A stretch of DNA of 64,000 bases, from positions 1 to 64,000 of the IMG/VR virus record IMGVR_UViG_3300035698_017726. One strand, given 5' to 3'. Positions 20,787-45,960 of the stretch are shown here, in pieces (the first letter of the stretch is position 1; every line of letters begins with the position of its first letter). This DNA comes from a virus. The notes beneath the pieces were generated by a model. The model saw only the letters and a program-made list of their open reading frames with translations. It ran no database searches and was not told the DNA's origin. Position numbers and translations under genes: made by a program.

Positions 20787-21702
20787 TCCCACTGTCTATT
20801 ACTACTTCTCTGAAGAGATGCAGAAAGAAGCGCTCGAAGCTGGAGCCTTCAAGGACTTTGCTGGGAGCGTCGGTAGAGATGCCTTGAACGCGGCCAAGAA
20901 AGTCCCTGAGTTCTTGTCGAGTCAAGCGGGCAACCTTGCTGCCGCAGCTACTACTAACGACGCAGGCAAGTCTCTTCCCGTCGGCGAGCAGCTGAGGAAT
21001 GTGGGTGGCGCAGCTTGGAAAGGCATCAAGGCAATTCCAGGTGCTACACTCAACACCGCTGTGGATTCTGCCAAGAACGTGACCAAGCCGCTTCGAGACT
21101 TAGTTCGGCACCCAGTAGATACGGCGCAGGCGGGGTGGGGTAAGCTCAGCCCAGGGGTGATCAAGGCCCAAGCCGCTGCCCAAGCCGCAACGCAAAATAC
21201 AGGGCGAGCATATGGGTCCACGATAGGAGATACCAATAGTCTGTCGGATAGGTTGCGTAACAGCGGCTGGTTGGCCAATGTCGCTAAGTACCAGGGCGGC
21301 GCCGAGACTGAGATTGGGGATCACCTCTCTAGAGCGAGGAACACCATCGGACGTGCGCTGCCGGGTCAGAAGGCGATCTTTACAGGCACTACTGCCTTGA
21401 GCACCGCTAATGCTCTTCGGCAAAAGGAAGACAGTAGGACGGGTAGGCAGCTAGGACTAGGAGAACGCGTAGGACGCGCCGCCGGTAGTGTAGGTGGGGC
21501 CCTGGCCATGAATACTTTTGCCCCAGGAGGCAACTTCGCAGCCCGCATGATTGGAAAGAGGTATGCAGGTAGGATGATTGGAGGAGCTACCTCTAATGCA
21601 GGTCGCGTGGTAGATACTGCGGTGAACAAGGTACGCGGTAGACTACCCCAAGATGCCGCGCAGCGACGTCTGCAGTATCCTGCTGGGTACGGAGCCAGGT
21701 AA
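20776..21702 (+). CDS. Basic Gly/Ala-rich putative cargo protein with F-SEEMQKEA leader
   Basis: N-terminal YYYFSEEMQKEA and C-terminal GxxxG stretches. Confidence 0.55.
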   Translation: MPTDPTVYYYFSEEMQKEALEAGAFKDFAGSVGRDALNAAKKVPEFLSSQAGNLAAAATTNDAGKSLPVGEQLRNVGGAAWKGIKAIPGATLNTAVDSAKNVTKPLRDLVRHPVDTAQAGWGKLSPGVIKAQAAAQAATQNTGRAYGSTIGDTNSLSDRLRNSGWLANVAKYQGGAETEIGDHLSRARNTIGRALPGQKAIFTGTTALSTANALRQKEDSRTGRQLGLGERVGRAAGSVGGALAMNTFAPGGNFAARMIGKRYAGRMIGGATSNAGRVVDTAVNKVRGRLPQDAAQRRLQYPAGYGAR

Positions 21703-23672
21703 TGAACACTCTCTCTAGCGAATACAACAGGTTCAACCCCAGACCTACCTCTAGCGCAACAGGTGGTCGAGGGTTCGGTGTTCGCTACCCATCGCCCTTC
21801 TTCGACGTAGCTCAACAGTTCTTACCAGAAAACATACACCAGCTCCATGTCTGGTGTCGGTACTACTTCCTTACGAACCCCATCATCAACGTCGCCTGCC
21901 AGAAGATGGCGGAGTATCCAGTCACCAAGCTGGTGTATGAGACCGAAGATGAGAAGATCCAGAAGCTCTACTCCACGCTGGAGAGGAACCTACACCTCCG
22001 CCAGTTCCAAGTAGAGGTAGGCCTCGATTACTTCGTCTATGGCAATGCCTTCGTAAGCATCTGGTATCCGCTGGAGAAATACCTCCTCTGTACCAAGTGC
22101 AACAAGCGACACAGAGCCTCCAAGTCTCGTGAGTTCTATAAGTGGAAGGACTCCAAGTTTCAGCTGAAGTGCCCTGACTGTGGCCATGAAGGCTGGGCCA
22201 AGGAAATCGACCACTATCCCCGGAAGTTCAGAGAGATCCGTCTCATCAGATGGAACACCGAGAACATTTACCTCAAGCATAATGAGGTCACGGGTGCGAC
22301 CAAGTACTACTACAAGATCCCGAAGAGCATCATCAATGACGTGAAGATGGGAGACCGGGAGACCGTAGAGACAATGCCGTCGGCGTTCCTGGAAGCTATC
22401 CGTAAGGGCCGCTCTCTCCTCTTCAAGAACGACAACTTCTTTCACCTGAAGCGGCCGACTATCGCGCAGAAGGACCAGGGCTGGGGAGCTCCCCTCATCT
22501 TTCCTCTGCTCAAGGACGCGTTCTACCTGCAGGTGATGAAGAAGGCCCAAGAGACGCTGCTCATGGAGCACGTCGTACCTCTCAGGGTCATCTTCCCTGG
22601 AGCTTCTCAGGACGGAAACGCCGGCGCGTACAGTACGTACAACCTCCAGAACTGGAAGGAGAAGATCAATACTGAGCTCAGCCTCTGGAAGAGGGACAAC
22701 AACTACATCCCAATTCTTCCGGTCAACGTAGGCTTCCAGCAGTGGGGCGGTACAGCTAAGGCTCTGATTCTCCACCAGGAATTTAGGTTCACGGCGGAGC
22801 AGATGCTGGCCGGTGCCGGTATCCCGGTCGAGTTCGTATTCGGTGGCCTTCAGTGGAGCGGTACGAACACATCTCTTCGCGCACTGGAGAACATGTTCGT
22901 TGGGTACAACCTCCAGCGGCACGAGCTGATCAACGACTTTATTATCGGTAGCATCGCCGAGTGGATGGAATGGCCCAAGGTCAAGTCCAAGTTCGACCGC
23001 TTCAAGATGGCCGACGACCTGCAGAGGTCGATGTTCTACCTTCAGCTCAACCAAGCACAGAAGATCTCCGACCGTAGGCTTCTCGAAGAGATCGGTGAGG
23101 ACTTTGACGCTGAGAACGGAAGGATGGACGAAGAGCTCAAGCGTCAGCTCCAGACTCAGCGCAAGATGCAGGTGGCCTCCGCCGATATCCAGGGCGAGTC
23201 CATGCTTCGTCAGTCACGGTACCAGGCCAAGGCTACTGCTCTGCAGACCGAAGCACAGATGGAGGCCCAGTTCGCTACCCAGGCAAAGGCAGAAGCTCAG
23301 GCGCAGGGACAGCCTCCTGCGCCAGAACCTCCTACCACGGCTTTCGATCAACAGGGCCAGCCTGGAAGTGGGCCTCCTGGCACAGAACTTCCCCCCGGTA
23401 TGCAGGGCATGGGTTCCCCTCTTCAAGAAGGGCAAGGCGGCGTAGATCTGGCGTACATGGCCAAGAGGGCTGCTTCATATCTGAAGACCGTTCAGAAGGA
23501 GTCCGGTGACGACGCCATGTATCAGGAGCTCCAGAAGATGCAGATGGATAATCCTCCTCTGTACAAGCTAGTCATTCAGGTCCTGAACGACGGCGGCTCT
23601 AAGGATAACCCCATGAGCGCCCTAGAGAATCCGAACCCATCTGGTCAGGCTGCTCCTGCTAGAACCGTATAG
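21702..23672 (+). CDS. Portal protein with Zn-ribbon insertion
   Basis: W.RYY...NPII, DYFVYGNAF, FHLKRP...GWG.P, coiled-coil crown and Q/P-rich tail. Confidence 0.8.
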   Translation: MNTLSSEYNRFNPRPTSSATGGRGFGVRYPSPFFDVAQQFLPENIHQLHVWCRYYFLTNPIINVACQKMAEYPVTKLVYETEDEKIQKLYSTLERNLHLRQFQVEVGLDYFVYGNAFVSIWYPLEKYLLCTKCNKRHRASKSREFYKWKDSKFQLKCPDCGHEGWAKEIDHYPRKFREIRLIRWNTENIYLKHNEVTGATKYYYKIPKSIINDVKMGDRETVETMPSAFLEAIRKGRSLLFKNDNFFHLKRPTIAQKDQGWGAPLIFPLLKDAFYLQVMKKAQETLLMEHVVPLRVIFPGASQDGNAGAYSTYNLQNWKEKINTELSLWKRDNNYIPILPVNVGFQQWGGTAKALILHQEFRFTAEQMLAGAGIPVEFVFGGLQWSGTNTSLRALENMFVGYNLQRHELINDFIIGSIAEWMEWPKVKSKFDRFKMADDLQRSMFYLQLNQAQKISDRRLLEEIGEDFDAENGRMDEELKRQLQTQRKMQVASADIQGESMLRQSRYQAKATALQTEAQMEAQFATQAKAEAQAQGQPPAPEPPTTAFDQQGQPGSGPPGTELPPGMQGMGSPLQEGQGGVDLAYMAKRAASYLKTVQKESGDDAMYQELQKMQMDNPPLYKLVIQVLNDGGSKDNPMSALENPNPSGQAAPARTV

Positions 23673-24678: not shown

Positions 24679-27600
24679 ATGGCCAACCTAAATCCAGAGG
24701 GCGCATTCGCCTCCCTCAAAGAAAGAACCAAGGATGCCATCAAAGCCCAGTTCCCCTACGTCGGAAAGAAGCATCGACTAGAGCTGGACAATCTCGAGGT
24801 AGTAGACTCCGGAGATAACCCTTCTTCGCTCTACCATGTCGACAACATTCAGTCTCAATATGATGCCAAGACCAAGGGTAGAACGTGGGCTGTCCCCATC
24901 AAGGCCGACCTTCGGCTAGTGAATGTGGATACCGGAAAGGTGATGGACAGATCCTCCATCACCCTCGGCAGACTTCCCAAGCTCACTCGTAGGTACACCT
25001 ACATCATCGATGGACAGGAGCGTCAGCACGACTCCGTCTTCCTTCTTCGAGCTCGGCCGTACCACATCAAGACCGATAGTGGCGCCATTCAGGCAAAATG
25101 GAACCTGGCCAAGGGCCATGGCTTTGACCTAACCATCGACCCATCGACGGGTGTGATGAAGATGAAGGTCGGCACCACCAATATCGCTCTGTACCCCGTA
25201 CTCAAGGCCATGGGGCTATCCGACTCGGATCTGGAGGCTAAGTGGGGACGCAGGGTCCTTGAGACCAATAAGGCCAAGGGTAAGCCAGAAGAGCTGCTGA
25301 AGTTCCACAGGTTCTTCAGCCGGCGCTACAAGGGGTACTCGACTCCGAACGTAGATGAAGCCGCAGCCTTCGTCCGAACCACCTTCGAGGCCACAGAGCT
25401 CCGCCCCGACGCCATGAAGACGGCCTTCGGAAAGGAGTTCACCAAGGTAGATGGAGAGAATCTTCTCCTGTCTTCAGCCAGAATCCTCAACATCAGTAGA
25501 GGTAAGGAAGAGGAAGACGATAGGCAGTCCCTAGCCTCCAAGGACCTGACCGGAACAGAGGACTTCATCGTCAAGTTCATTGCGCGCGGCACCAGAGACA
25601 TGAGCCGTAAGGTCAAGAACAACCTGGACCGGGCCGATAAGATCTCCGACATCATCTCGCCGAATATGTACACGCGCACCATCCTGAGCACCTTCCAGGA
25701 AGCGCAGCGCCCAGACCAGACAAATCCGCTCAACTTCATCTCTGGCTACCAGAGAACCACTATCCGTGGCGCCTCCTACGGCGGCATCAAGGGAGAGCGC
25801 GTCAACCTGGACAGGGACAAGCAGATCAACCCATCCCACCTAGGCTTCTTGGATCCTGTGCAGACGCCTGAGTCTCAGGACACTGGCGTAGTCCTTCATC
25901 TGCCCCTGGGTGTACGGAAAGAAGGAACCCAGCTCAAGATTGACGTCTACGATGTCAAGAAGAAGGCCTGGGTGGCTGTCACTCCGGGAGACCTAGAGTT
26001 CGAGGTTGTTGCCTACCCGGACCAGGTCAAGTGGGTAGATGGAAAGCCTAAGCCCATCGCCAAGAACGTAGCTGTCTACGATAAGGACCGCCAGACGGCT
26101 AAGCGTCCTTGGACCTCAGTCAGGTACATCTTGGCCTCCACCAAGGGACTCTTCTCCTTCGGCGCCAACCTGATTCCCTTCCTAGGAAACAACAACGGAA
26201 ACCGCGCCATGATGGGCGTGAAGCAGATGGAGCAGGCTGTCTCACTGGTGAACCGGGAGCAGCCCTTGGTCCAGACCAAGGCCAGCAAGAACATGTCCTT
26301 CGAGGAAGCGGTCGGCTCGTTCAGTGCCCACTTCTCTCCCATAGACGGGACAGTTACCTCTGTCACCAAGGATGAGATCGTCATTCAGGGCGCCAACAGG
26401 AAGGTCTCACGCGTCCAGATCTACAACAACTTCCCCCTCAACGGAGGAAAGGGTGTCCTCAACGCTATCGCCAAGGTGAAGCGCGGAGAGAAGGTAAAGA
26501 AGGGACAGCTCATAGCGGACACCAACTTCACTGAGAACGGGCATCTTGCTCTTGGGGCTAACATCAGAGTGGCGTACATCCCCTACAAGGGGCTGAACTT
26601 CGAGGACGGTATCGTTGTCGCTGAGTCGGCAGCGAAGAAGCTGTCCTCTATGCACATGCACCAGAACTCGGTCACTATCTTCCCCGGCATGGTGGTCAAC
26701 AAGCAGAGATGGGCTGACTACGCTCTCCCAGAACTGGCCACCCAAGAGCGGATGGCCAAGCTGGACAATGATGGTGTGGTCAAGGAAGGAGAAAAGGTCA
26801 AGGAAGGGGACATCCTCGTTGCGCTACTAGCTCCCAGTGAGAGAACCAAAGACGACGAAGACGTAGCGTCTATCCGTAAGTCTCTGGTCAAGGACTACAA
26901 AGATCGGTCATTGTCATGGGACCACTCGTACCCAGGTGAGGTCGTCAAGGTCATCAGAAGCGGCAAGAAGATCATGGTCCATGTGAAGACCGAGGAGTCT
27001 CTAGCCGTAGGAGACAAGCTCACTGCTCGTCACGGCAACAAGGGCATCGTCAGCCGCATTCTTCCTGACCATGAGATGCCTCACACCAAGGACGGCAACG
27101 CTGTCCAGGTTCTGTTGAACCCAGCAGGTGTGCCTTCTCGTATGAACGCTGGGCAGATCCTAGAGACCGCTGCCTCCAAGATTGCCAAGAAGACCGGCAA
27201 GCCCTATGTCGTGGAGAACTTTGAGCACGGTAAGGACTACACGCAACAGGTCAAGGACGACCTGAAGAAGCACGGGCTGACCGACACCGAGGAGCTAATC
27301 GATGCCAAGACCGGTAGGTCACTAGGACAGGTCCTAGTAGGTGACCAGTATCTGCTGAAGCTTCACCATATGGTAGAGAAGAAGATGACGGCTAGGTCCT
27401 TTGGTGGATCCTACAACGTCCACGGGACTCCTCCAGGTGGGGCCGGTATCCCTGGTGGAGGCCAGCGTTTTGATCAGCTGTTGACCTACGCCATGCTAGC
27501 TCATGGCGCCAAGCACAACCTACGTGAGGCCTACACCTTCAAGAGCGACGCGGACCAAGACGAGGTCTGGTACGCCGTGATGACAGGCAGACCCCTACCC

Positions 27601-30600
27601 GACCCACAGCCCACTAGAGGTATGAAGAACTTCACTACCTATCTGAAGGCGATGGGCATCAATACAGAGAAGGAGGGAGACAAGTACGTCCTATCTCCCA
27701 TGACCGATAAGCAGACCACTGCCATCTCCAATGGCTCGTTGGAGTTCCCAGAGAAGGCACTGAAGGCAAAGGGCCTACGAACCATGGAGGAGGCCGGAGG
27801 TCTCTTCGACCCACGTAAGACCGGCGGCCTAAGTGGTCAGTTCTGGACACACATGGAGCTCGAGGAGAGGATCCCCAATCCCATCTTCGAAACGGCTATT
27901 CAGTCTCTACTCGGCATGAAGAAGAAAGAGTTCGAGCATATGGTTTCCGCCAGTGGTGGAGACGGAAAGCGCTCTGGCTTCGAGATCCTAGCAGAGCAGC
28001 TGCGAGTCATTGACGTTCCCTCTGAGCTGAAGAAGACGGAAGAGTCTCTTCCCAAGCTCAAGGGTCCGCAGCTAGCCAAGGCGTACAGAAAGGTACGGTA
28101 TCTCCGCGCGCTGAAGAGCAACAACGTCTCTCCTGTGGACGCGTACACCAACAAGGTGCTGCCGGTAGTTCCGCCATCGGTGCGCAGAGTAAGCATCGGC
28201 TTGGATGGGAGTCAGATCTTCGATAGCCTCAACGGGCTGTACAGGTCCGTAGGTCAGATCAATGGACAGCTAAAGAATGCTGACCCATCTACCCCATATA
28301 GTGAGATGCAGGCCCAGCGAGCTCACCTGTACGATGCTGTTAGGGCTCTTCGCATGACCGGCATGGATATGGGCGAGGGTACCAAGTCGCGACACCACTT
28401 CGGCCTGATGGAGAAGATGAAGGGCCAGGCGCCCAAGCATTCTTTCTTCCAGGACGGAGTACTGAAGCGTCGGCAGGACCTGTCAGGTAGGTCAACCATC
28501 ATTCCCGAGCCCGACATGGGACTGGATGAGGTGGGCATTCCTCTGCCAATGGCCTTGGAGCTGTATCGTCCCTTCGTACGTAGAGAGCTCTTCCTCAACC
28601 GAGGCTACGCGCCCAACCAAACTGGGCAGCTCGTTGATAAGAAGGACCCTGCAGCTATTGAGGCGCTCCACAGAGTCATCAATGAGCGTCCGGTTCTGCT
28701 GAAGAGAGACCCAGTACTCCACAAGTTCGGAGTCATGGCCTTCAAGCCGAAGATCATCTCCGGTAAGGCCATCGCCATTCACCCGCTGGTGACTGGCGGG
28801 TTCAACGCTGACTTCGATGGGGATGCCATGAGCATCTTCGTTCCGGTCTCTCAGGAAGCCGTTGATGAGGCCAAGACTAAGCTACTGCCGTCCAAGAACC
28901 TGTTCTCCCCTACCCACGGCGGCATCATGCCGGTGCCGGGTCAGGGGTCTCTACTTGGGCTGTACCAGGCTACCAAGTGGGGAACAGTCACTGCTGTCCC
29001 TACTGGCATCACTCCAACGAAGGCTATCTCGATGCTCCGAGGAGGGAAGCTCAAGCCCTCTGACGTCATCACCATTGGCGGAAAGACGACTACTCCCGGA
29101 CGACTACTCCTGGATTCGGAGCTCCCCAAGGACATGCGAGGGAACAAGACTCTTCTGTACGACCAGACCTTCCGTCTGGACAAGAGAGGACTGAAGAGAC
29201 TGCTGACCGAGGTCGGAAAGAAGCATCCTAAGAGCTTCCCAAGGGTAGTGGATGCATGGAAGGACCACGGCAACACGCTCGCCTACATGAACGGCAGCTC
29301 CATCACGCTGAACGACATCCATGACGGCAAGGAGATTAGGGACCAGGTCCTAAAGAAGTACAAGCTCGAAGAGGACTCCATCCGGTCCAGTACATTGGAC
29401 CGGAAAACCAAAGACAAGAAGGTAGTGGCCCTGTATAGCAAGGCTATGGGTGAGCTGGAGACAGTAGGCAACGTTGCGTATACTCGTAGAGGGGACAACA
29501 ACCTTCATGAGTGGGCCGCATCCGGAGCTCGTGGAGGCTGGTCCCAGTTCAGTCAGCTAGTCATGGGGCCAATGCTGGTTCAGGATTCCAAGGGTAAGCC
29601 TGTTCCTGTTCCCATCACCAAGTCCTTCGGCGAGGGACTATCCGTTCCTGAGTACTGGGCCTCTCTACACGGTGCCAGAAAGGGGACCCTCGATAGGGCT
29701 ACTGAGACTGAGAAGCCTGGCTCGCTGACCAAGGACATTATCAACACCGTCATCAATCACCACGTCACTGCGGATGACTGCGGTACCGATAAGGGCGCCG
29801 CCATGAACCCCATGGACGCGGATTGTACGGACAGGTACTTGGCCAAGGATGTGAAGCTCAAGGGTGGAGACATCATCGCGGCCCGAACCTTGCTGACTCC
29901 TCCGTCTCTTACCCGGATTCGGAACTCCAACATCCAGAAGATCGTAGTGCGGTCTCCTCTTCACTGCCGTCAGGCCTCCGGTATCTGCGCAAAGTGCTAC
30001 GGACTCAACGAGAACGGTAAGCTCTACTCGGTAGGCACCAACGTTGGTGTCATCTCAGGGAACGCCTTGGGAGAGCCTGTCACTCAGCTCACCATGAAGA
30101 CCTTCCACACCGGAGGTACCGTCACTGGGGGCGGTGAGGATGGCGATGTAATCGATAAGTTCAAGAGGGTTCAGCAGCTTTTCTTCGTACCAAAGAAGCT
30201 TCCAGGAGCCGCAACGTTGGCCACAAAGAGCGGTACCATCACTAAGGTGGTGGCCAACAGGTCACTTGGCGGCATGGATGTCTATATCGACGCTAAGCGT
30301 CACTATGTTCCTGCTGGCCTGACGCTACTGCCTAGCGTCTCCAAGGGACTGACAGTCAAGAGAGGAGATCCCCTGTCTTCTGGTCCAATCAATCCCCATT
30401 CTCTGCTGAAAGAGACCGGGAACGTCAACGCGGTACGCGCGTACATGACCGATGAACTACAGAAGACCTACCCTTCCGGGATTAGAAGGCGTAATATTGA
30501 GACCGTCGTTCAGGCAATGACCAACCTGACACAGATTGAGGCGGCAACTGACCACCCAGAATACGATAGAGGCCAGATGCTTCCGCTGTCTCAAGTAGAG

Positions 30601-30852
30601 GCGGCCAACAGACAGGCAAAGATGACTGGAGCCACTCCGATTCTACACAAGCCTATGCTCAAGCCAATGACAGAGATGCCGTTGGCGGGGCAGGAAGACT
30701 GGTTGGCCCGTCTTAACTACCGTCGCCTAGAGAACACGTATACTGAGGGGGCCGCCCAAGGCTGGTCCTCAGACATCCATGGGCACCCAATCGCTGGCCT
30801 CGCTCACGGCGCCGAGTTTGGGACGAAGCCATTTAAGGAGATCAAGTCATGA
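24679..30852 (+). CDS. rpoBC: Single-chain beta-beta' fused DNA-directed RNA polymerase
   Basis: Beta motifs DQTNPL, QTPE, NFEDG, GDKLTARHGNKG, GVPSRMN, KLHHMV, GGQRF. Beta' motifs SGRSTI, NADFDGD, GARKG, RSPLHC..C..CYG, GEPVTQLTMKTFHTGG. Confidence 0.97.
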   Translation: MANLNPEGAFASLKERTKDAIKAQFPYVGKKHRLELDNLEVVDSGDNPSSLYHVDNIQSQYDAKTKGRTWAVPIKADLRLVNVDTGKVMDRSSITLGRLPKLTRRYTYIIDGQERQHDSVFLLRARPYHIKTDSGAIQAKWNLAKGHGFDLTIDPSTGVMKMKVGTTNIALYPVLKAMGLSDSDLEAKWGRRVLETNKAKGKPEELLKFHRFFSRRYKGYSTPNVDEAAAFVRTTFEATELRPDAMKTAFGKEFTKVDGENLLLSSARILNISRGKEEEDDRQSLASKDLTGTEDFIVKFIARGTRDMSRKVKNNLDRADKISDIISPNMYTRTILSTFQEAQRPDQTNPLNFISGYQRTTIRGASYGGIKGERVNLDRDKQINPSHLGFLDPVQTPESQDTGVVLHLPLGVRKEGTQLKIDVYDVKKKAWVAVTPGDLEFEVVAYPDQVKWVDGKPKPIAKNVAVYDKDRQTAKRPWTSVRYILASTKGLFSFGANLIPFLGNNNGNRAMMGVKQMEQAVSLVNREQPLVQTKASKNMSFEEAVGSFSAHFSPIDGTVTSVTKDEIVIQGANRKVSRVQIYNNFPLNGGKGVLNAIAKVKRGEKVKKGQLIADTNFTENGHLALGANIRVAYIPYKGLNFEDGIVVAESAAKKLSSMHMHQNSVTIFPGMVVNKQRWADYALPELATQERMAKLDNDGVVKEGEKVKEGDILVALLAPSERTKDDEDVASIRKSLVKDYKDRSLSWDHSYPGEVVKVIRSGKKIMVHVKTEESLAVGDKLTARHGNKGIVSRILPDHEMPHTKDGNAVQVLLNPAGVPSRMNAGQILETAASKIAKKTGKPYVVENFEHGKDYTQQVKDDLKKHGLTDTEELIDAKTGRSLGQVLVGDQYLLKLHHMVEKKMTARSFGGSYNVHGTPPGGAGIPGGGQRFDQLLTYAMLAHGAKHNLREAYTFKSDADQDEVWYAVMTGRPLPDPQPTRGMKNFTTYLKAMGINTEKEGDKYVLSPMTDKQTTAISNGSLEFPEKALKAKGLRTMEEAGGLFDPRKTGGLSGQFWTHMELEERIPNPIFETAIQSLLGMKKKEFEHMVSASGGDGKRSGFEILAEQLRVIDVPSELKKTEESLPKLKGPQLAKAYRKVRYLRALKSNNVSPVDAYTNKVLPVVPPSVRRVSIGLDGSQIFDSLNGLYRSVGQINGQLKNADPSTPYSEMQAQRAHLYDAVRALRMTGMDMGEGTKSRHHFGLMEKMKGQAPKHSFFQDGVLKRRQDLSGRSTIIPEPDMGLDEVGIPLPMALELYRPFVRRELFLNRGYAPNQTGQLVDKKDPAAIEALHRVINERPVLLKRDPVLHKFGVMAFKPKIISGKAIAIHPLVTGGFNADFDGDAMSIFVPVSQEAVDEAKTKLLPSKNLFSPTHGGIMPVPGQGSLLGLYQATKWGTVTAVPTGITPTKAISMLRGGKLKPSDVITIGGKTTTPGRLLLDSELPKDMRGNKTLLYDQTFRLDKRGLKRLLTEVGKKHPKSFPRVVDAWKDHGNTLAYMNGSSITLNDIHDGKEIRDQVLKKYKLEEDSIRSSTLDRKTKDKKVVALYSKAMGELETVGNVAYTRRGDNNLHEWAASGARGGWSQFSQLVMGPMLVQDSKGKPVPVPITKSFGEGLSVPEYWASLHGARKGTLDRATETEKPGSLTKDIINTVINHHVTADDCGTDKGAAMNPMDADCTDRYLAKDVKLKGGDIIAARTLLTPPSLTRIRNSNIQKIVVRSPLHCRQASGICAKCYGLNENGKLYSVGTNVGVISGNALGEPVTQLTMKTFHTGGTVTGGGEDGDVIDKFKRVQQLFFVPKKLPGAATLATKSGTITKVVANRSLGGMDVYIDAKRHYVPAGLTLLPSVSKGLTVKRGDPLSSGPINPHSLLKETGNVNAVRAYMTDELQKTYPSGIRRRNIETVVQAMTNLTQIEAATDHPEYDRGQMLPLSQVEAANRQAKMTGATPILHKPMLKPMTEMPLAGQEDWLARLNYRRLENTYTEGAAQGWSSDIHGHPIAGLAHGAEFGTKPFKEIKS

Positions 30853-31517
30853 AGGCAGAGAAAGTAGCCTCCGCATACGCCATTGCGCTCCGAGTCAGAT
30901 CTGAGCTCGACTTCGAGAAGGCAGCGTCGTACCGCGCCAACGGACTCTCCGCCTATCAGGCGCTCTTCACTTCGATGGAGAAGGGCGCTAGCCTAGAGAA
31001 GGCGGCCATGGGGGGCATGGGCATCGGTATGGGAGGGCAGGACTGGGTAGAGCGCTTCATGGATACACCCTTCTACCAGGACGCCCTGGCGTTCGAAGCG
31101 CAGCAGGCAGAGCAGGGCGTTCAGCGTGCTCAGCGACGCGCAGAAGATCGGCAGGCCTGGGCCGAAGAGTCCCATATGGACGTCCAGCGTGCTCAGCTCG
31201 AGTCCCAGCTTGCTGGGTGGAAGCTGCAGGAAGCACAGCAGCAGGCCGCAGAGCCCGTGCCTGTAGCGTCCGGCGGTCCTCCTCCTCCAGGAGCCGAAGG
31301 TGAGCTACCTCCCGTAGAGCCCCCGGCCCCAGAAATGAACGCTCCTGCTCCTGCTGCAGCTATGCAGCAGGCACCTCCCGAAGCAGGTCCTCCTGCAGGA
31401 GGGCCACCCAAGATGGCCGGAGTCCTCGGTATTTTGGACAAAGAGCGGGAGAAGAAGGCTAAGAAGGCTAAAGGTAAAGACGGTAAGCTCAGCGAGTTCC
31501 TGAACTCCAGGAAGTAA
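30849..31517 (+). CDS. K-x-A-rich, Pro/Gln-rich putative internal protein
   Basis: ATGA-coupled to the RNAP gene; EKVAS, EKAAS, EKGAS, EKAAM, PKMAG. Confidence 0.6.
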   Translation: MKAEKVASAYAIALRVRSELDFEKAASYRANGLSAYQALFTSMEKGASLEKAAMGGMGIGMGGQDWVERFMDTPFYQDALAFEAQQAEQGVQRAQRRAEDRQAWAEESHMDVQRAQLESQLAGWKLQEAQQQAAEPVPVASGGPPPPGAEGELPPVEPPAPEMNAPAPAAAMQQAPPEAGPPAGGPPKMAGVLGILDKEREKKAKKAKGKDGKLSEFLNSRK

Positions 31518-32507
31518 ATGCGTCGATTTGGATCAAGAGGTTCCGCACGTCGGAACCTTACTCCTGCGTCCGTGACGGAGGCCCAGATTCTGGATGTCAA
31601 TCCGGACGCCTGGACTATGACGTTACGGACTGTAGCTAACGATGAGATCTTTACCCACGTTCCCATCGTCTCGACATACCTGCATCATTTCGCCGGTGAG
31701 GGCATTCATTACATGCCTGAGGCCGGCACTATGTGCTGGATATGTAAGCCTAGTGAGGGCGATACCAAGCCCTTCATCGTGGCCTTCAGGCCTCCCGCTG
31801 ACGAGAAAGGAACCTTCAGAGCCAACAGACCTGTTCTGAACCCAGGGGACGTCCACATCTCTACTAGAGACGGCAACGCTATCAAGATTCGTAGAGGCGG
31901 CGTCATCGAGATTGAGGCTAGCCCCCTGGCTAGGACCTTCTGGCTTCCAGTGGCGAACAAGATCATGTCCTTTGCGGCCAACCACGAGATTGTAACTCTT
32001 GGTGGGTCACAGAAGTGGAGGACCGCTCGTCCAGAAGAAGACGAGGACGGGAATCACGCCACCAAGTACACGCTCAAGGCCAAAGAGTTCTCCGAGCACA
32101 AGCAGCAGGTGGTTCAGCTGGACGCCGGCGGGCAAATAGATGGTGGAGTCTTCAAGCTCCAAGTCTTTGCCGATGGAAACATTGGCAGCGAAGACGCCCT
32201 AGATGCTCAGTTCTCTGCGACTATCGATAAAGAAGGTAAGGTCGCCATAGAAGCTGACGATGTGGACATCCACCTACATGAAGGAAAGACTGTCAGAATC
32301 TTCGACTCAGATGGCTCTGCGACAGAGGGAGTTGTCCTCGGGAAGACTTTTCTCACCGACCTTCTGACGTTCTTTACGGGTCTTCAGACTATACTTGGTA
32401 CGATAGGGCTCACTGTTCCGGGCCTCTCCGATATGATCACGAAAACTACCACTACTCTCGGTGTCGAGGGTGCCCCCTACCTCTCTACCAGAACGAAGAC
32501 AGAATAG
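31518..32507 (+). CDS. Probable baseplate spike (gp5/gpV-like OB fold)
   Basis: OB-fold-like N-terminus (YMPEAGT, LNPGD...RDGN), beta-repeat body, VVLG..F near the C-terminus. Confidence 0.6.
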   Translation: MRRFGSRGSARRNLTPASVTEAQILDVNPDAWTMTLRTVANDEIFTHVPIVSTYLHHFAGEGIHYMPEAGTMCWICKPSEGDTKPFIVAFRPPADEKGTFRANRPVLNPGDVHISTRDGNAIKIRRGGVIEIEASPLARTFWLPVANKIMSFAANHEIVTLGGSQKWRTARPEEDEDGNHATKYTLKAKEFSEHKQQVVQLDAGGQIDGGVFKLQVFADGNIGSEDALDAQFSATIDKEGKVAIEADDVDIHLHEGKTVRIFDSDGSATEGVVLGKTFLTDLLTFFTGLQTILGTIGLTVPGLSDMITKTTTTLGVEGAPYLSTRTKTE

Positions 32508-41042: not shown

Positions 41043-42839
41043 ATGTCTGTTGTTTCGAAAGAGTGGCACGGAGAGACCATCAGTAGATGGGTCACTCCTG
41101 GCTACGTATACGAAGATTACGACGAACAATGGGACTATGAGGACCCCGCACCAGAGATTGAGGACTGGGAAAGAGAGGCCGCATTAGAAGAAGTAGCGGA
41201 CAAAATCAACATGACGTGTTCTCAGTTCGTAGAGAACACCATCAAGGTGCCCAACGCAGACACGCGCACCATGGAGTACTTCTCCTACGCAGAGCGCGGC
41301 TATTTGAGGCGGGTCTACGACACCTCGTCGCGAAGAACTCTGCTCATGTGTGGCCGTCAGGTCGAGAAGAGTACGTCCCTAGGGAACAGAGCTCTAGCCG
41401 TCTCGTGCCTGATCCCTCACTTCAAGGTGCTGTATGTCTCTCCCTCCAGTACGCAGACCAAGGAGTTCTCGAAGACACGGCTAAAGGAGGTCTCTGAGAC
41501 GTCCCCGGACATCAAGGTGTGGTTCCCTTCCCACCTCACGGACAACGTCTTCGAAAAGAAGGCAATCAACAGAAGCCAGATTACTCTGCGCTACGCATTC
41601 CTCAATGCTGACCGTTGTCGAGGCCTGAGCTCCGACCTGATCTGTCTAGACGAGTTCCAGGACATCCTCCTGGACAACATTCCCGTTATCGAAGAGTCCG
41701 CCTCTCACTCTCCCTTCAAATGGTTTACCTATTCCGGTACTCCAAAGTCGCTGGACAACCCCATTGAGGTGTTCTGGCAGACTCGGTCCACGCAGAATGA
41801 GTGGGCAGTTCCTTGTGAGCGTCACGGCCACCCCAAGCAGCCCGGTACGTGGCACTGGAACATCCTCAGTGAGAAAAACATCGGTATTCAGGGCCTCATC
41901 TGCGATAAGTGCGGAAAGAGGATTTACCCCGACCACCCGATGTCTCAGTGGGTGCGTACAGCTACTCCTGACCCCAAGTTCGAAACCTTCGAAGGGTTCA
42001 GAATTCCTCAGCTTATGGTCCCCTGGATTGAGTGGACCAACATCCTCACGAAGTACAACGACTACTCCAGAGCTCGGTTCTTCAACGAGGTTCTGGGCCA
42101 GTCATTCGATTCCGGCCAGAGACCACTGACTCAGAAGGACGTCCAGGACAACTGCGACGTGAACTTCAAGATTTCGCCTGAATTCATCAAGGAGCTACAG
42201 GCGACCAGAATGTCCGGCAACAAGATCTATGCTGGCATCGACTGGGGACAGGACTCCAGCAATTCCTATACGGTCCTTTCTCTCGGCACCTACATTGAGG
42301 GACGGTTCACGATCTTCTTCATCCATAAGTTCATTGGCGCTGAGTCCGGGGCCAAAGAGCAGATGATCAAAATTAAGAAGATCATCAATGGCTTCGGAGT
42401 AGATAGAATCGGCGTTGACTACGGTGGAGGCTTCTGGCCAAACGATGAGCTCCTGCGCGCCTACGGCTCTAGTCGTGTCTTTAGGTACCAGTATTCGTCT
42501 CCGAAGCACCACCTGCAATGGGACACCAAGCTAGGCAGATACCTCGTCCATCGCTCAGAAGTAATGAGTGCGGTCTTCAACTCGATTAAGCGTCGTACCG
42601 TATTCAGGTTCCCCATGTGGACCGACTTCCAGCCCTTCGCCAAGGATATGTTGGCTATCTTCTCTGAGTACAATGAGCGCACCAGAATGACTGAGTATAA
42701 GAAGTCGCCGAACACCACGGATGACTCCTTCCACTCCATCCTGTTCTGCTTCCTTGCCTCGATGATTGACTATCCCCGTCCAGAGATCCTGGTCCCCAGT
42801 GTCCAGACAGACATGGAGATAAATAGACGACACAGCTAA
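41043..42839 (+). CDS. terL: Terminase large subunit (GpA-like)
   Basis: GRQVEKST, DEFQD, SGTP, FFNEVLG, GIDWG, DDSFHS. Confidence 0.92.
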   Translation: MSVVSKEWHGETISRWVTPGYVYEDYDEQWDYEDPAPEIEDWEREAALEEVADKINMTCSQFVENTIKVPNADTRTMEYFSYAERGYLRRVYDTSSRRTLLMCGRQVEKSTSLGNRALAVSCLIPHFKVLYVSPSSTQTKEFSKTRLKEVSETSPDIKVWFPSHLTDNVFEKKAINRSQITLRYAFLNADRCRGLSSDLICLDEFQDILLDNIPVIEESASHSPFKWFTYSGTPKSLDNPIEVFWQTRSTQNEWAVPCERHGHPKQPGTWHWNILSEKNIGIQGLICDKCGKRIYPDHPMSQWVRTATPDPKFETFEGFRIPQLMVPWIEWTNILTKYNDYSRARFFNEVLGQSFDSGQRPLTQKDVQDNCDVNFKISPEFIKELQATRMSGNKIYAGIDWGQDSSNSYTVLSLGTYIEGRFTIFFIHKFIGAESGAKEQMIKIKKIINGFGVDRIGVDYGGGFWPNDELLRAYGSSRVFRYQYSSPKHHLQWDTKLGRYLVHRSEVMSAVFNSIKRRTVFRFPMWTDFQPFAKDMLAIFSEYNERTRMTEYKKSPNTTDDSFHSILFCFLASMIDYPRPEILVPSVQTDMEINRRHS

Positions 42840-42847
42840 AAGGGGAT

Positions 42848-42884
42848 TCTCCGAGGACCGCCCAATGGCGGCGGTCCTCGGAGA
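42848..42884. terminator. 14-bp stem terminator at the convergent junction
   Basis: TCTCCGAGGACCGC...GCGGTCCTCGGAGA; minus-strand tail CCCCTTTTAGC. Confidence 0.75.
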
Positions 42885-42899
42885 TGCTGTCTGGAAGTT

Positions 42900-43343
42900 C
42901 TAGGCCTCGGCAGCCACGACTTTCGGCTTGGCTGCCGAGGCCTTGGCGGCGGCGCTGTCCTTGGCGATGCCCTTGTTGATCGCTGCCTCGAGCACGGGCT
43001 CGAGCACGATTTCACGCTCGGCGGCGCTGTCCACGAACGCCTGCTGGGCAGCGGCGCCCTTGCTGGCCCAGCGCCGGTGGGCGCGGGCCTGCAGGTTCGT
43101 GCTGCGGACTGCATCCGCCTTCGGCGTCACCGCCAAGATGCGGAAGCCGATGCCGGTGATGGCGCCGATGGCGCCGCTGGTGATGACCGCCCAGAGGGGG
43201 ATCGTGCGCCCAGCGAGCCGGGCGATACCGAAGCTGGTGCCGATTGCGGCGCCGGCGCCAGTGGCGGGGGCGACGAGTTCAGCCGCCACGACTTGCATGG
43301 GTCGCAAGACCCAGAGAGCGAGGAGGGTACGGATGGTGAGCAT
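42900..43343 (-). CDS. Putative membrane protein (early-type, GC-rich)
   Basis: Hydrophobic Gly/Ala segments; GGGAG SD. Confidence 0.6.
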   Translation of the reverse strand: MLTIRTLLALWVLRPMQVVAAELVAPATGAGAAIGTSFGIARLAGRTIPLWAVITSGAIGAITGIGFRILAVTPKADAVRSTNLQARAHRRWASKGAAAQQAFVDSAAEREIVLEPVLEAAINKGIAKDSAAAKASAAKPKVVAAEA

Positions 43344-43493
43344 AGTAGACAGTCTCCCTAGGGGGTGAATGCATCTAGAGAAAGAGGTTCATCAACTCTG
43401 GATACATAGATCTTATGCAGGAAACTGCAGGTTTTTTATCCATTTATGGGGCTATTTGGACGCCCCTCAGAGAGGGGGTCCATGGCCAAAGGC

Positions 43494-44060
43494 CTAGTTG
43501 TGCATGGTCGGCCGAGGCGGCCGAAGTCTGCGACTCTTCGGCTTCGGCGCGGGCTCGTCGGCTTGTTCCACCTCGGCAGCGGCCGTCTCGATGGTAACCA
43601 CACGGCGGCTGATGCGCCCGATGGCCTCGCTGTTGCTCTCTGCGGCGTCCTCGATCCCTTGGACACGGACGGACAACTCCGAGATGGCTCCAATAGCGGT
43701 GGCTACGTCCGCCAACTCGCCGGTGAGGCGGGCCACATCCTTACCGAGAGCGGCGACCTTGGCCTTGGCCTTGGCCTTGTCCTTGCTCTGGACTTTGAGC
43801 TCCTCGGTCTGGCCGGTGAGCTGGTCCTTGAGTCCCTGGACCTGGACGGCGAGATCGGCACGGGCCTTCTCACTCGCAGCCAGCGCGGCGGTGGTGACGT
43901 TGGGCTTCGGCACGGGCTTGCGCGCGGGCTTGGCCTTCGGCTTCGTTGCCTCGACGGCAGCGTCAGAGGCTTGCTCGTGCAGCTCCTGCACGGCTGCCTC
44001 GTGGCCGTCTCCGATGGGCTCTGGCGTAGGGACGTCCTTCTTGCTTTCTGGGGTAGGCAC
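43494..44060 (-). CDS. Coiled-coil protein (early-type, GC-rich)
   Basis: Heptad region flanked by K/P-rich ends. Confidence 0.6.
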   Translation of the reverse strand: MPTPESKKDVPTPEPIGDGHEAAVQELHEQASDAAVEATKPKAKPARKPVPKPNVTTAALAASEKARADLAVQVQGLKDQLTGQTEELKVQSKDKAKAKAKVAALGKDVARLTGELADVATAIGAISELSVRVQGIEDAAESNSEAIGRISRRVVTIETAAAEVEQADEPAPKPKSRRLRPPRPTMHN

Positions 44061-44091
44061 AGATCACTCTCTCTGTTGGGGTTCACTATGC

Positions 44092-44799
44092 TTATGACCT
44101 CCTACGGAGAGCCTTTGTAACTGCGTCTTGGATAGAGCCAGGAACTTGGTCTATGGCTAGACGGGTTACTTCTGGGTCCAGAGAGGTGTAGCCCTCGGCG
44201 TAGATGACTGCGGAGACCCTGAGACGTCTACGCCCTTCGGCAAGTTGCTTATGTAGTGCTTGCAGTTCCAGAGACTGGGCGTACTCTTTCATGTCCACTA
44301 CGTGCAAGGTCATCTGCCTACATAGCAGCAGAAAAGGCTTCCATGGTTTCCTATCCTCAGTTGCCTTGGAGATTGTCCGGAAATCGTCTTCATCCATCCT
44401 GAAGAAGACCTCTACCCAAGGCTGAATCTCGTCTACGACCCAATCTCCTCTCCCTAGCTGCTGGATACATACTGTATGGAGCTGCTTGGCGTATTCTGGA
44501 GCCATACTCAAAGGATTGGACTTAGTGTCCAGTACCCGCAGAACAGTCTCCATTTGCGCCTCTAGCCGACGCATCCGCATCTTCATCTGGAGTACCTCTT
44601 TACGGGAGACTAGAGATTGCTTACCCAATTCCTCCTTCTCTCTCCGGAACTCTTCCAGTTCTGTGGCATCCAGCCACTTTCTGTTGTCGCCCTTACGTTT
44701 ACGGCCGTATAGGAGGCCCTGACTCAGGTAGCCACGGATAGTTCTGGTAGAAACCCCTAGTCTTTTGGCTGCATCTTCTATGGTAAGGTCGTTTTTCAA
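44092..44799 (-). CDS. MerR/HTH_17-type DNA-binding regulator
   Basis: LTIEDAAKRLGVSTRTIRGYLSQGLL followed by a coiled coil. Confidence 0.8.
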   Translation of the reverse strand: MKNDLTIEDAAKRLGVSTRTIRGYLSQGLLYGRKRKGDNRKWLDATELEEFRREKEELGKQSLVSRKEVLQMKMRMRRLEAQMETVLRVLDTKSNPLSMAPEYAKQLHTVCIQQLGRGDWVVDEIQPWVEVFFRMDEDDFRTISKATEDRKPWKPFLLLCRQMTLHVVDMKEYAQSLELQALHKQLAEGRRRLRVSAVIYAEGYTSLDPEVTRLAIDQVPGSIQDAVTKALRRRS

Positions 44800-44861
44800 G
44801 GTGATTCTCCTTTGATTCTAGTAAAAGCCTTGCTACCCTTCAGATAGGATAGAGGTAAGTA

Positions 44862-45740
44862 ATGAGCTGGAACAGGTCCATCACAGAGAGTGACCTCAGA
44901 AGCATGGCTTCCGAGGCTACCTCCCTACACCTAAACGATGGCATCCCACTCACTGATTCAGTGGTAAAGGTCGCCAGTGATAAGAACAATCTCACGTCTG
45001 AGCACCTGCGCAGAGTTTGTGAAATGACCTATCACGATACGTATGAGCGCATGTTCCGAGACGGAGAAGGCAGCGATAGATACGTGAGCTTCGACCCTCC
45101 TGATGCTGATGCGGTGATCCAGTCCGTAAATGGTGATGAAGCCAAAACAGCATCCGTTCCTTGGAGAGCTACCGGTATGACTCCTACTCCTTATGCAGAA
45201 AAGACCGCCTCAGTTGGTGTCCGCCGCTTTGTTCCAACTAACGCCTTCGACGCGTTGGTAAAGTCTGCTGAGGCTCCCGAGTCCAGCTGGGCTGACCCGA
45301 CTGGCGAATTACGTAGGCTTCGGAACCACATGAAGGAGGCCATGCTCGAGCTAGACTCGCGGGTAGGTAGAACTACCGCTGCGGTCAAGATTGCCGAGTA
45401 CGAGCTCTTCTCCCATGCGGACCAGGCCTGTAAGCAGGGCCATCCAGTGGACCGAGTTCTGTCTGTCTGCCTTGGTGGGCTAGAGAAGGAAGGTCACGCT
45501 ACCTCTCCCTCGGGCCAAGACGTACTTCACACTCTGGCAGAGAACCTACTCCAGAGCGGTTGGTCGCATGAAAAGACTGCTGCTGTTGAAGGAGAGGTGA
45601 ACACTTCTCACCCCATCGCGGTGACCAGTGTTAAACTGGCGGAGTTGAAGAGCCAGAGAGAGCACCTCGAGCTTTCTCTCGGTTTCATCCGTGAAGACTT
45701 CGACCGTGCCAACGAGGAACTCCTTGCCCTGCTCACATGA
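44862..45740 (+). CDS. K-x-A-rich head core protein
   Basis: VKVAS, AKTAS, EKTAS, VKSAE, VKIAE, EKTAA, VKLAE. Confidence 0.65.
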   Translation: MSWNRSITESDLRSMASEATSLHLNDGIPLTDSVVKVASDKNNLTSEHLRRVCEMTYHDTYERMFRDGEGSDRYVSFDPPDADAVIQSVNGDEAKTASVPWRATGMTPTPYAEKTASVGVRRFVPTNAFDALVKSAEAPESSWADPTGELRRLRNHMKEAMLELDSRVGRTTAAVKIAEYELFSHADQACKQGHPVDRVLSVCLGGLEKEGHATSPSGQDVLHTLAENLLQSGWSHEKTAAVEGEVNTSHPIAVTSVKLAELKSQREHLELSLGFIREDFDRANEELLALLT

Positions 45741-45756
45741 GACAGAACGTGAGAGA

Positions 45757-45954: not shown

Positions 45955-45960
45955 TGAACT

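What the first reader, a model, noticed from the sequence alone, without database searches (positions are those of the whole stretch)
26700..28350. RNAP has lost its sigma-docking surfaces and the beta' zinc-binding domain
Seen, by eye alignment to E. coli: the flap-tip helix TPEEKLLRAIF is replaced by TKDDEDVASIR. GGLFDPRKTGGLSGQFWTHMEL bridges the site of the N-terminal beta' Zn ribbon with no Cys. The clamp helix reads LYRSVGQIN instead of LYRRVINRN, placing Ile at the R275-equivalent position. Known: these elements bind sigma4 and sigma2. Inference: promoter recognition uses a non-sigma70 mechanism.
Basis: partly seen in the sequence, partly recalled or inferred. Interest (0 to 1): 0.7.

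Follow-up and report, generated by a model that had tools for sequence, protein, structure and literature searches.

The report
Phage RNA polymerase with remodelled sigma-docking sites
A large phage encodes a single-chain, bacterial-type RNA polymerase that has deleted one zinc domain and rewritten the residues that normally hold the host sigma factor. The docking helices themselves remain, and the phage lineage carries its own sigma-like genes, so the enzyme has probably changed partner rather than given up sigma factors.

Summary
The three sequence observations are correct. ORF 24679-30852 (+) is a 2057-aa head-to-tail beta-beta' fusion.

- **Flap tip:** TKDDEDVASIR aligns with E. coli TPEEKLLRAIF.
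- **Zinc ribbon:** a Cys-free stretch replaces the beta' N-terminal Zn ribbon. The protein has five Cys, and four of them form the second, retained Zn site.
- **Clamp helix:** Ile sits at the R275 position. None of eight published sigma2-contact residues is conserved.

All three traits recur in more than 100 fused homologues and in Salmonella phage Arash.

Host sigma70 docking looks disabled. However, an AlphaFold model keeps the flap-tip helix and the clamp coiled coil.

This genome encodes a complete sigma70-family protein 55 kb downstream, outside the window. A second, divergent sigma-like family occurs in 17 of 26 long related records. Among 50,697 phage records, that family is found full-length only in the four isolates that carry this polymerase. 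In Arash both proteins were detected in virions.

The 30849 gene is low-complexity and not conserved. The 44092 protein has a MerR/excisionase-type HTH.

Most likely this is a virion-associated polymerase retuned to phage sigma factors. That pairing is inferred, not shown. This scan had already noted the fused polymerase itself.

The parts
24679..30852 (+). Single ORF of 2057 aa: bacterial-type RNA polymerase beta fused head-to-tail to beta' (P0001)
   Evidence: Pfam Rpb2_6 (E 5e-68), Rpb1_2 and Rpb1_5, all above cut-off. PDB beta' chains at E 1e-108. VIA-align on the AF2 model of residues 560-1460: beta chains Z 26-27, beta' chains Z 23-24.
26845..26877 (+). Flap-tip helix equivalent, TKDDEDVASIR (residues 723-733)
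   Evidence: Aligns with beta 896-906. Predicted as a helix at model residues 165-173, pLDDT about 67. Family motif: T[KR][DE]D..[LVM]..I[HRS][KR]SLV[KR]D[YF][KR]D.
27673..27690 (+). beta/beta' junction (residues about 999-1004), with no linker
   Evidence: In VIA-align, beta chains end at model residue about 445 and beta' chains (E. coli residue 16 onward) start at model residue about 440. MAFFT places ...MGINTEKEGD|KYVLSPMTDKQ at the join.
27796..27861 (+). Cys-free stretch at the site of the beta' N-terminal zinc-binding domain (residues 1040-1061)
   Evidence: The model shows a compact loop plus strand with pLDDT about 92.
28225..28359 (+). Clamp helices (coiled coil), residues 1183-1199 and 1207-1227. 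I1194 occupies the R275 position.
   Evidence: BLASTP and MAFFT. Two helices at model residues 624-640 and 648-668, pLDDT 87-94. Contact positions R275, R278, R281, L282, L285, I291, E295, M298 read I, Q, N, A, P, E, Q, H.
28804..28824 (+). Catalytic NADFDGD motif (residues 1376-1382)
   Evidence: Seen directly in the sequence. A1377, D1378, D1380, G1381 and D1382 are invariant over 29 family members; N1376 is at least 90% conserved.
29779..29997 (+). Second beta' zinc site, retained: C1701, C1763, C1770, C1773 (= E. coli C814, C888, C895, C898)
   Evidence: Aligned in BLASTP. The four Cys are invariant in family alignment A1.
21702..23672 (+). Probable portal protein, upstream of the polymerase
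   Evidence: Weak phrog_2833 match. 57% identical to the corresponding G005 gene. Arash has the same order, portal gp204 then RNAP gp206.
30849..31517 (+). Downstream ORF of 222 aa overlapping the RNAP stop (ATGA). Ala/Pro/Gln-rich and low-complexity.
   Evidence: No Pfam or PHROG family. No tblastn match in the 80 related loci.
31518..32507 (+). Baseplate central spike (gp5/gpV-like). Conserved just downstream of the polymerase in relatives.
   Evidence: tblastn matches in 71 related loci. ESM Atlas features and structure point to Phage_base_V/VgrG.
44092..44799 (-).
   Evidence: Pfam MerR 29.3 bits and HTH_17. Sigma70_r4_2 only 19 bits, below cut-off. PHROG excisionase and small-terminase matches are weak.

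Best explanation
The ORF is the catalytic core of a phage-encoded RNA polymerase: a single chain made of bacterial-type beta and beta'. It sits in the virion structural module, between the portal and baseplate-spike genes, of a phage of about 180 kb.

In this whole phage lineage the enzyme keeps the active centre, the second zinc site, the flap and the clamp coiled coil. It has lost the beta' N-terminal zinc-binding domain. It has also replaced the basic clamp-helix residues and about half of the flap-tip hydrophobic patch, which in bacteria grip sigma region 2.2 and region 4.

The most likely consequence is that host sigma70 can no longer dock. Host factors that use the same sites, such as NusA and NusG, may be excluded too. 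The retained helices would then serve as re-tuned docking sites for phage-encoded, divergent sigma70-family proteins. That would give the phage a private sigma-dependent transcription system, probably delivered with the virion for early transcription.

Shown here: the fusion, the deletion, the substitutions, their spread across the family, the retained helices, and the presence of sigma genes. Inferred: that the phage sigma proteins bind this polymerase, that host sigma does not, and that the polymerase of this particular phage is packaged.
For: - **Alignments.** Formal alignments confirm the three changes.
- **Contact residues.** Against the contact lists of the sigma32 open-complex structure (PMC10216364), 0 of 8 clamp-helix contacts and 1 of 5 flap-tip contacts are identical.
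- **Zinc sites.** The protein has only five Cys, four of them at the retained Zn2 site.
- **Structure.** The AF2 model (pLDDT 81) keeps the flap-tip helix and both clamp helices. It superposes on beta at Z 26-27 and on beta' from residue 3-16 onward at Z 23-24.
- **Family spread.** The traits recur in the more than 100 listed fused homologues, out of 998 proteins at E<=1e-20, with 452 related IMG/VR stretches; Arash shares them too.
- **Own sigma gene.** At G000:C1:85380-86180 (-) lies P0124, 266 aa. It matches phrog_351 at 5e-22 and Sigma70_r4 above cut-off, aligns to SigA 180-377, gives an AF2 pLDDT of 85, and hits sigmaS/sigmaA by Foldseek at 1e-8.
- **Possible matched change.** P0124 and its four nearest relatives carry V/I/L where E407 sits. 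That position is E in 45 of the 61 aligned sigmas (P0124 included). Its sigma32 equivalent, E81, lies in the interface with the clamp-helix residues R275/R278/R281, which this polymerase has lost.
- **Second sigma family.** phrog_351 matched 19 of 26 long related records. In 17 of them, including Arash, the match is a gp10-like sigma. Among 50,697 phage records this family is full-length only in the four isolates that carry this polymerase.
- **Virion data.** In Arash, mass spectrometry found the polymerase as the most abundant virion protein and also found the sigma-like Gp10 (PMC10585845).
- **Synteny.** By gene order, the gp10-like gene would lie about 18 kb beyond the left end of this incomplete contig.
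Against: - No binding test or complex prediction was possible, so the sigma-polymerase pairing rests on co-occurrence and on one suggestive matched substitution.
- The gp10-like sigma family mostly keeps Glu at the E407 position, so the charge-loss argument does not apply to it.
- The sigma-facing clamp-helix positions vary within the family. That could mean relaxed constraint rather than a co-evolving interface.
- P0124 is lineage-specific. It is absent from 25 related records and from Arash. Like many phage sigma factors, it might redirect the host polymerase instead.
- The gp10-like gene is not on the 114.8-kb record held for this genome.
- The Arash virion proteome listed 116 proteins, including metabolic enzymes. 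Its authors warn of carry-over.
- All core genes of a lineage share one phyletic pattern, so co-occurrence alone is weak evidence.
Confidence: 0.58

Rival explanations
1. The polymerase no longer uses any sigma70-family protein. Promoter specificity comes from an unrelated phage factor, as gp226 does for the AR9 non-virion polymerase. The phage sigma-like proteins act on the host polymerase instead.
For: 0 of 8 clamp-helix contact residues are kept, and the zinc-binding domain is gone. The sigma-facing clamp-helix positions vary within the family. Jumbo-phage multisubunit polymerases offer a precedent for sigma-unrelated specificity subunits (PMC7598289). Phage sigma factors that redirect host polymerase are common (PMC7824862).
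Against: The docking helices are retained, and the flap tip carries a conserved family motif. Sigma-family genes travel with this polymerase and were detected in Arash virions. According to PMC7824862, phiKZ-type phages with sigma-independent polymerases encode no sigma factor, whereas this lineage does. The two proposed candidates are poor.
Confidence: 0.22
2. The changes mainly insulate the enzyme from host elongation and termination control, not from initiation factors. From general knowledge, not tested here: NusA binds the flap tip, NusG binds the clamp-helix tip, and the zinc domain lines the RNA exit channel. On this reading the effect on sigma binding is a by-product. This can hold together with the main explanation.
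For: The same three elements are shared binding sites for host elongation factors (textbook knowledge; recalled). All three are altered together across the family.
Against: Nothing in the sequence separates this from sigma retuning. No phage NusA or NusG homologue was looked for.
Confidence: 0.12
3. The polymerase still works with the host's sigma70 or another host sigma factor, and the substitutions are tolerated drift.
For: The overall fold of the docking elements is kept.
Against: R275Q, E295K or A302D alone is reported to impair holoenzyme formation (PMC8321222); here positions 275 and 295 are changed and A302 is kept. In addition, all 8 listed clamp-helix contacts differ, the flap-tip changes L901->D and F906->R remove half the hydrophobic patch, and the zinc domain is absent.
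Confidence: 0.05

Closest known systems
Bacterial RNA polymerase core beta/beta' (E. coli, Thermus, Mycobacterium)
   Same: About 30% identity. Shares the NADFDGD centre, the second Zn site, the flap, the clamp coiled coil and the beta' N-terminal module. Structural Z 23-27.
   Different: One polypeptide with no linker. The N-terminal zinc-binding domain is deleted. Sigma-contact residues are replaced. No alpha or omega gene was found in the 114.8 kb held. E. coli lineage-specific insertions are absent.
Salmonella phage Arash gp206/gp216 with Gp10 (PMC10585845), and Vibrio phages D69/D148/D181
   Same: The Arash polymerase shares the flap-tip motif, the Cys-free zinc-domain deletion and a non-Arg residue at position 275, and has the same gene order with the portal gene upstream. 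The Vibrio phage polymerases match at 29% identity over 95% of the length; their three sites were not inspected. All four isolates carry the gp10-like sigma.
   Different: Only 29-32% identical to this one. The Arash enzyme is split after the beta' N-terminal part, with other genes in between. The Vibrio copies carry homing-endonuclease insertions. The paper annotates the subunits but does not analyse the docking surfaces.
phiKZ / AR9 jumbo-phage multisubunit RNA polymerases (PMC7598289, PMC9209446)
   Same: Phage-encoded relatives of cellular beta/beta', with no alpha or omega. One form is packaged in virions.
   Different: Those enzymes are split into 4-5 polypeptides and are far more divergent. 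They use a non-sigma specificity subunit (gp68/gp226), and those phages encode no sigma factor. This enzyme is fused, close to bacterial sequences, and travels with sigma-family genes.
mReC: multisubunit-RNAP-encoding Caudovirales from metagenomes (PMC7481178)
   Same: Tailed-phage contigs that encode alignable beta and beta' homologues.
   Different: The mReC capsid proteins all match T4-type PF07068 and the terminases match PF03237. Here the capsid protein matches no Pfam family and the terminase is gpA-type. Identity of the two groups was not established, and that paper does not discuss sigma docking.
Natural rpoB-rpoC fusions in cellular bacteria (Helicobacter, Wolbachia; recalled, not looked up)
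   Same: Beta and beta' in one chain.
   Different: Those are ordinary cellular enzymes. As far as I recall they keep the zinc domain and work with host sigma and alpha.

Membership tests
Cellular-type (two double-psi beta-barrel) multisubunit RNA polymerase, bacterial branch | Beta and beta' catalytic domains with the NADFDGD Mg-binding motif | tested here: met
   Pfam Rpb2_6, Rpb1_2 and Rpb1_5 above cut-off. NADFDGD at residues 1376-1382; five of its seven residues are invariant in the family and N1376 is at least 90% conserved.
Cellular-type (two double-psi beta-barrel) multisubunit RNA polymerase, bacterial branch | Fold matches solved bacterial beta and beta' chains | tested here: met
   VIA-align Z 26-27 for beta and 23-24 for beta', about 400 residues aligned, rmsd 3-4.8 A. 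Foldseek E 1e-34.
Cellular-type (two double-psi beta-barrel) multisubunit RNA polymerase, bacterial branch | Beta' N-terminal Cys4 zinc-binding domain (E. coli C70, C72, C85, C88) | tested here: not met
   A 12-19 aa Cys-free stretch replaces it in 101 of 101 matched family members. The protein has no Cys before residue 1701.
Cellular-type (two double-psi beta-barrel) multisubunit RNA polymerase, bacterial branch | Second beta' zinc site (C814, C888, C895, C898) | tested here: met
   C1701, C1763, C1770 and C1773 align to it and are invariant.
Cellular-type (two double-psi beta-barrel) multisubunit RNA polymerase, bacterial branch | Alpha dimer and omega as assembly partners | tested here: inconclusive
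   No PF01000 or PF01192 match in the record, but the record is only about 62% complete.
Core enzyme that docks host sigma70 | Clamp-helix contact residues R275, R278, R281, L282, L285, I291, E295, M298 | tested here: not met
   They read I, Q, N, A, P, E, Q, H (contact list from PMC10216364).
Core enzyme that docks host sigma70 | Flap-tip helix contacts E898, K900, L901, I905, F906 | tested here: not met
   They read D, E, D, I, R. Only I905 is identical. The helix itself is retained.
Core enzyme that docks host sigma70 | Physical binding of sigma70 | not testable with these tools
   Needs a pull-down or a complex prediction. Only single-chain folding was available.
Sigma70 family (for the phage protein P0124, outside the window) | Region 2 and region 4 domains | tested here: met
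   Sigma70_r4 at 29.4 bits against a cut-off of 24.1. Sigma70_r2 at only 17.8 bits, below the 24 cut-off. Also phrog_351 at 5e-22 over the full length, alignment to SigA 180-377, an AF2 model with a sigma2-sigma3-sigma4 helix pattern, and Foldseek hits to sigmaS/sigmaA.
phiKZ/AR9-type sigma-independent phage polymerase | Beta and beta' each split into separate polypeptides, with a gp68/gp226-type fifth subunit | tested here: not met
   The ORF is a single 2057-aa chain. A gp68/gp226 homologue was not searched for.
Virion-packaged phage RNA polymerase | Protein present in purified particles | not testable with these tools
   For this genome only the gene position in the structural module supports it. 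Proteomic detection exists for the relative Arash.

The most novel reading that the evidence does not exclude
This lineage encodes a complete, self-contained sigma-type transcription machine. It would be a single-chain beta-beta' core that needs no alpha, no omega and no N-terminal zinc domain. It would pair only with the phage's own highly divergent sigma70-family factors through a rewritten interface. It would be injected from the virion, making it a viral sigma holoenzyme orthogonal to the host's.
Probability: 0.4. Interest if true: 0.8.

Novelty: new variant of a known kind. Interest (0 to 1): 0.55.

Why it matters
Phage multisubunit RNA polymerases studied so far (phiKZ, AR9) are split, very divergent and sigma-independent. 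This family is close enough to bacterial enzymes to align residue by residue. Yet it is one chain, lacks a domain regarded as universal in bacterial beta' (from general knowledge; not surveyed here), and has the sigma-contact residues replaced while sigma-like genes travel with it.

If the pairing is real, it is a natural experiment in re-coding the core-sigma interface. It would also be a compact orthogonal transcription system, and a way to ask what the zinc domain and alpha/omega are needed for.

The family is widespread. There are 452 related stretches in IMG/VR and about 1000 proteins in the metagenome collection. It has cultured members (Arash and Vibrio phages D69/D148/D181), so the questions can be tested directly.

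Tried and rejected
- **Pattern searches in IMG/VR.** P0001 alone found nothing; an alignment was needed. The P0124 alignment and P0126 found nothing in IMG/VR or in metagenome contigs. The gp10-like alignment was too variable to use as a pattern.
- **Homologues of P0124.** It is nearly an orphan in the word-indexed search, with one hit.
- **gp10-like sigma in this genome.** A profile of that family finds nothing in the 114.8 kb held. Synteny with G005 places the expected site off the contig's left end, so this absence is uninformative.
- **Covariation.** A table pairing clamp-helix and sigma 2.2 sequences across genomes recovered too few pairs to analyse.
- **Charge-swap idea.** I first misread the MAFFT alignment and thought gp10-like sigmas had also lost E407. 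On recount most keep Glu, so the argument applies only to P0124-type sigmas.
- **Promoter hunt.** k-mer enrichment upstream of 59 genes gave no convincing shared motif. Near-consensus sigma70 promoters number 3, against about 12 in local shuffles. Coding sequence disfavours TATAAT, so I draw nothing from this.
- **Neighbouring gene as a subunit.** The conserved downstream gene 31518-32507 is a gp5/gpV-type baseplate spike, not a polymerase subunit.
- **Full-length alignment.** MAFFT on about 100 sequences timed out, so segment alignments were used instead.

Full report
**What is there.** The finding's coordinates lie inside one ORF, 24679-30852 (+), of 2057 aa (P0001). Pfam finds RNA polymerase Rpb2 domain 6 (E 5e-68) and Rpb1 domains 2 and 5, all above cut-off. 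Solved bacterial beta' chains match at E about 1e-108. So this is a bacterial-type beta fused to beta' in a single chain.

The window is the first 64 kb of an IMG/VR virus record of 114,832 b, estimated 62% complete. The neighbours are phage structural and replication genes:
- family-A DNA polymerase, 8871-11270 (-)
- probable portal, 21702-23672
- gp5/gpV-type baseplate spike, 31518-32507
- large terminase, 41043-42839
- prohead protease, 46987-48867
- major capsid protein, 53698-54960
- sheath-like protein from 59700

**Checking the three observations.** I took Salmonella RpoB and RpoC from a public record as stand-ins for E. coli, with the same numbering.

- *Flap tip.* BLASTP aligns P0001 718-748 with beta 887-920, so TKDDEDVASIR (723-733) lies on TPEEKLLRAIF (896-906).
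- *Clamp helix.* BLASTP aligns P0001 from residue 1098 with beta' from residue 179. LYRSVGQIN lies on L268-N276, so I1194 is the R275 position.
- *Junction and zinc ribbon.* A MAFFT alignment of the junction region with 60 family members and the Salmonella beta C-terminus plus beta' N-terminus gives three results. The beta C-terminus runs straight into beta'. GGLF matches DGLF (beta' 54-57). W-x-H-[IM]-x-L matches MGHIEL. Between those last two blocks, the 44 residues that hold C70, C72, C85 and C88 are replaced by 12-19 residues without Cys.
- *Cysteine count.* The whole protein has five Cys. Four of them (1701, 1763, 1770, 1773) align with the second beta' zinc site and are invariant in the family.

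**Published contact residues.** The sigma32 open-complex structure lists the clamp-helix interface as R275, R278, R281, L282, L285, I291, E295 and M298. It lists the flap-tip interface as E898, K900, L901, I905 and F906 (PMC10216364). In P0001 the clamp-helix positions read I, Q, N, A, P, E, Q, H (0 of 8 kept). The flap-tip positions read D, E, D, I, R (1 of 5 kept). R275Q, E295K and A302D are each reported to impair holoenzyme formation (PMC8321222); P0001 keeps A302. Docking of a host sigma70-type factor in the usual way is therefore unlikely.

**The elements themselves are not lost.** I folded residues 560-1460 with an alignment of 25 relatives. The mean pLDDT is 81.3.
- The flap tip is still a helix (model 165-173 = residues 724-732).
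- The clamp coiled coil is intact (residues 1183-1199 and 1207-1227, pLDDT 87-94).
- The former zinc-domain site is a short, confident loop and strand.
- Against solved structures, model residues 1-445 superpose on beta (Z 26-27). Residues 440-870 superpose on beta' from residue 3-16 onward (Z 23-24, rmsd about 3.1-3.5 A).

So the beta' N-terminal module is present, minus the zinc domain.

**A family trait, not a quirk of this genome.** The protein search found 998 relatives at E<=1e-20. More than 100 of them are fused chains of 2040-2130 aa at 41-65% identity, several with inteins. IMG/VR holds 452 related stretches, on contigs up to 199 kb, some complete with terminal repeats.

Across the family:
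- The flap tip carries a conserved motif. The L902 and I905 positions stay hydrophobic. L901 is usually acidic or polar. F906 is His, Arg or Ser.
- Position 275 is never Arg among 91 sequences: Ala 27, Ser 19, Leu 18, Ile 14, Val 5, Thr 4, others 4.
- The structural clamp-helix positions (D264, N266, L268, Y269, V272, L279) are kept, while the sigma-facing positions vary.

Salmonella phage Arash, at 32% identity and with the polymerase split into gp206 and gp216, shares all three traits.

**Sigma-family genes.** The same virus record encodes a 266-aa protein, P0124, at G000:C1:85380-86180 (-), 55 kb downstream of the polymerase and outside the window. The evidence that it is a sigma factor:
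- It matches phrog_351 (RNA polymerase sigma factor) at E 5e-22 over its full length. It matches Sigma70_r4 above cut-off and Sigma70_r2 below cut-off.
- It aligns with C. difficile SigA residues 180-377, from region 2.2 to region 4.2.
- It folds with pLDDT 85 into a sigma2-sigma3-sigma4 helix pattern whose best structural matches are sigmaS and sigmaA.
- In region 2.2 it keeps D403 and Q406 but has Val for E407, Met for N409 and Tyr for M413.

E407 corresponds to E81 of sigma32, one of the sigma-side residues of the interface with the clamp-helix residues listed above. Among the 61 aligned sigmas (P0124 included), this position is Glu in 45. All five P0124-type proteins have Val, Ile or Leu there. 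Loss of the acidic residue in the sigma, together with loss of the basic residues on the polymerase, is what a re-coded interface would look like. It is one correlated pair, so it is suggestive and not a proof.

P0124 is lineage-specific. It is missing from 25 long related records and from Arash.

**A second sigma-like family.** phrog_351 matched 19 of 26 long related records. In 17 of them, Arash among them, the match is one divergent sigma-like protein of about 230-300 aa with recognisable regions 2 to 4. In Arash it is Gp10, annotated as a sigma factor.

Among 50,697 phage records, full-length members occur only in Arash and in Vibrio phages D69, D148 and D181. Those are the isolates that carry this polymerase.

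In Arash, virion mass spectrometry found the polymerase as the most abundant protein and also found Gp10. The authors caution that abundant intracellular proteins may be carried over (PMC10585845).

A profile of this family finds nothing in the present record. However, gene order is collinear with relative G005: G005 42-70 kb corresponds to 1-23.7 kb here. That places the expected position about 18 kb beyond the left end of this contig. The absence therefore says nothing.

- The ORF at 30849-31517 overlaps the polymerase stop codon. It is an Ala/Pro/Gln-rich low-complexity protein with no family match and no counterpart in 80 related loci. In many relatives the conserved spike gene follows the polymerase directly.
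- The protein at 44092-44799 (-) has only an N-terminal MerR/excisionase-type HTH, with weak small-terminase similarity.

**Reading.** The best-supported picture is a virion-associated, single-chain polymerase that is blind to host sigma70. It may also be blind to host factors that use the same sites. It keeps sigma-type docking helices for the phage's own sigma-family proteins (confidence about 0.58).

No binding evidence exists, and the sigma-facing clamp-helix residues are variable. Continued use of host sigma is unlikely (about 0.05).

No alpha or omega gene was found in the sequence held. That fits a self-sufficient fused core but is inconclusive for an incomplete genome.

**Novelty.** Phage-encoded beta/beta' homologues are known (PMC7481178, PMC7598289), and the Arash paper annotates its subunits. 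In the literature I could search, nobody has described three things for this family: the deletion of the zinc domain, the rewritten sigma contacts, or the link with a lineage-specific sigma family. I class it as a new variant of a known kind.

Noticed in passing
homologues P0008, P0011, P0016, P0017, P0024, P0026, P0041 and others; Vibrio phage D181 144152-152029: Many family members are 2400-2830 aa and carry intein or homing-endonuclease domains (PF14528, PF14890, PF03161, PF05204) inside the polymerase. The copy in this window has none. Arash instead has the gene split, with other genes in between.
   Followed up: no
window 31518-32507 (+): A gp5/gpV-type baseplate spike gene lies just downstream of the polymerase in 71 related loci. 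The polymerase is thus embedded between the portal and baseplate genes across the family.
   Followed up: partly
window 30849-31517 (+): An Ala/Pro/Gln-rich low-complexity ORF is coupled to the polymerase stop codon (ATGA overlap). It is not conserved in relatives and looks like a variable insert between the polymerase and the spike gene.
   Followed up: partly
window 2-2611 (+), at the contig's left end: The contig starts inside a very large gene. Its homologue in relative G005 is an open frame spanning 41978-47842 (about 1950 aa), at 25% identity over 725 aa. Function unknown.
   Followed up: no
G000:C1:86251-86853 (-), outside the window (L003:1859-2461): A 200-aa ORF next to the sigma gene P0124 has Cys/His motifs resembling an HNH-type nuclease. 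This suggests the sigma gene may sit near a mobile insertion.
   Followed up: no
whole record G000:C1: Only 3 sites match the sigma70 -35/-10 consensus at 10 of 12 positions or better, against about 12 in local shuffles. One lies just upstream of the terminase gene (40972). Coding bias may explain the shortfall.
   Followed up: partly
Arash record, 120947-121615 (L086): Arash encodes a second, more canonical sigma-like protein (open frame 380 aa, phrog_351 E 1e-25) besides Gp10. More than one sigma per genome may therefore be usual in this lineage.
   Followed up: no
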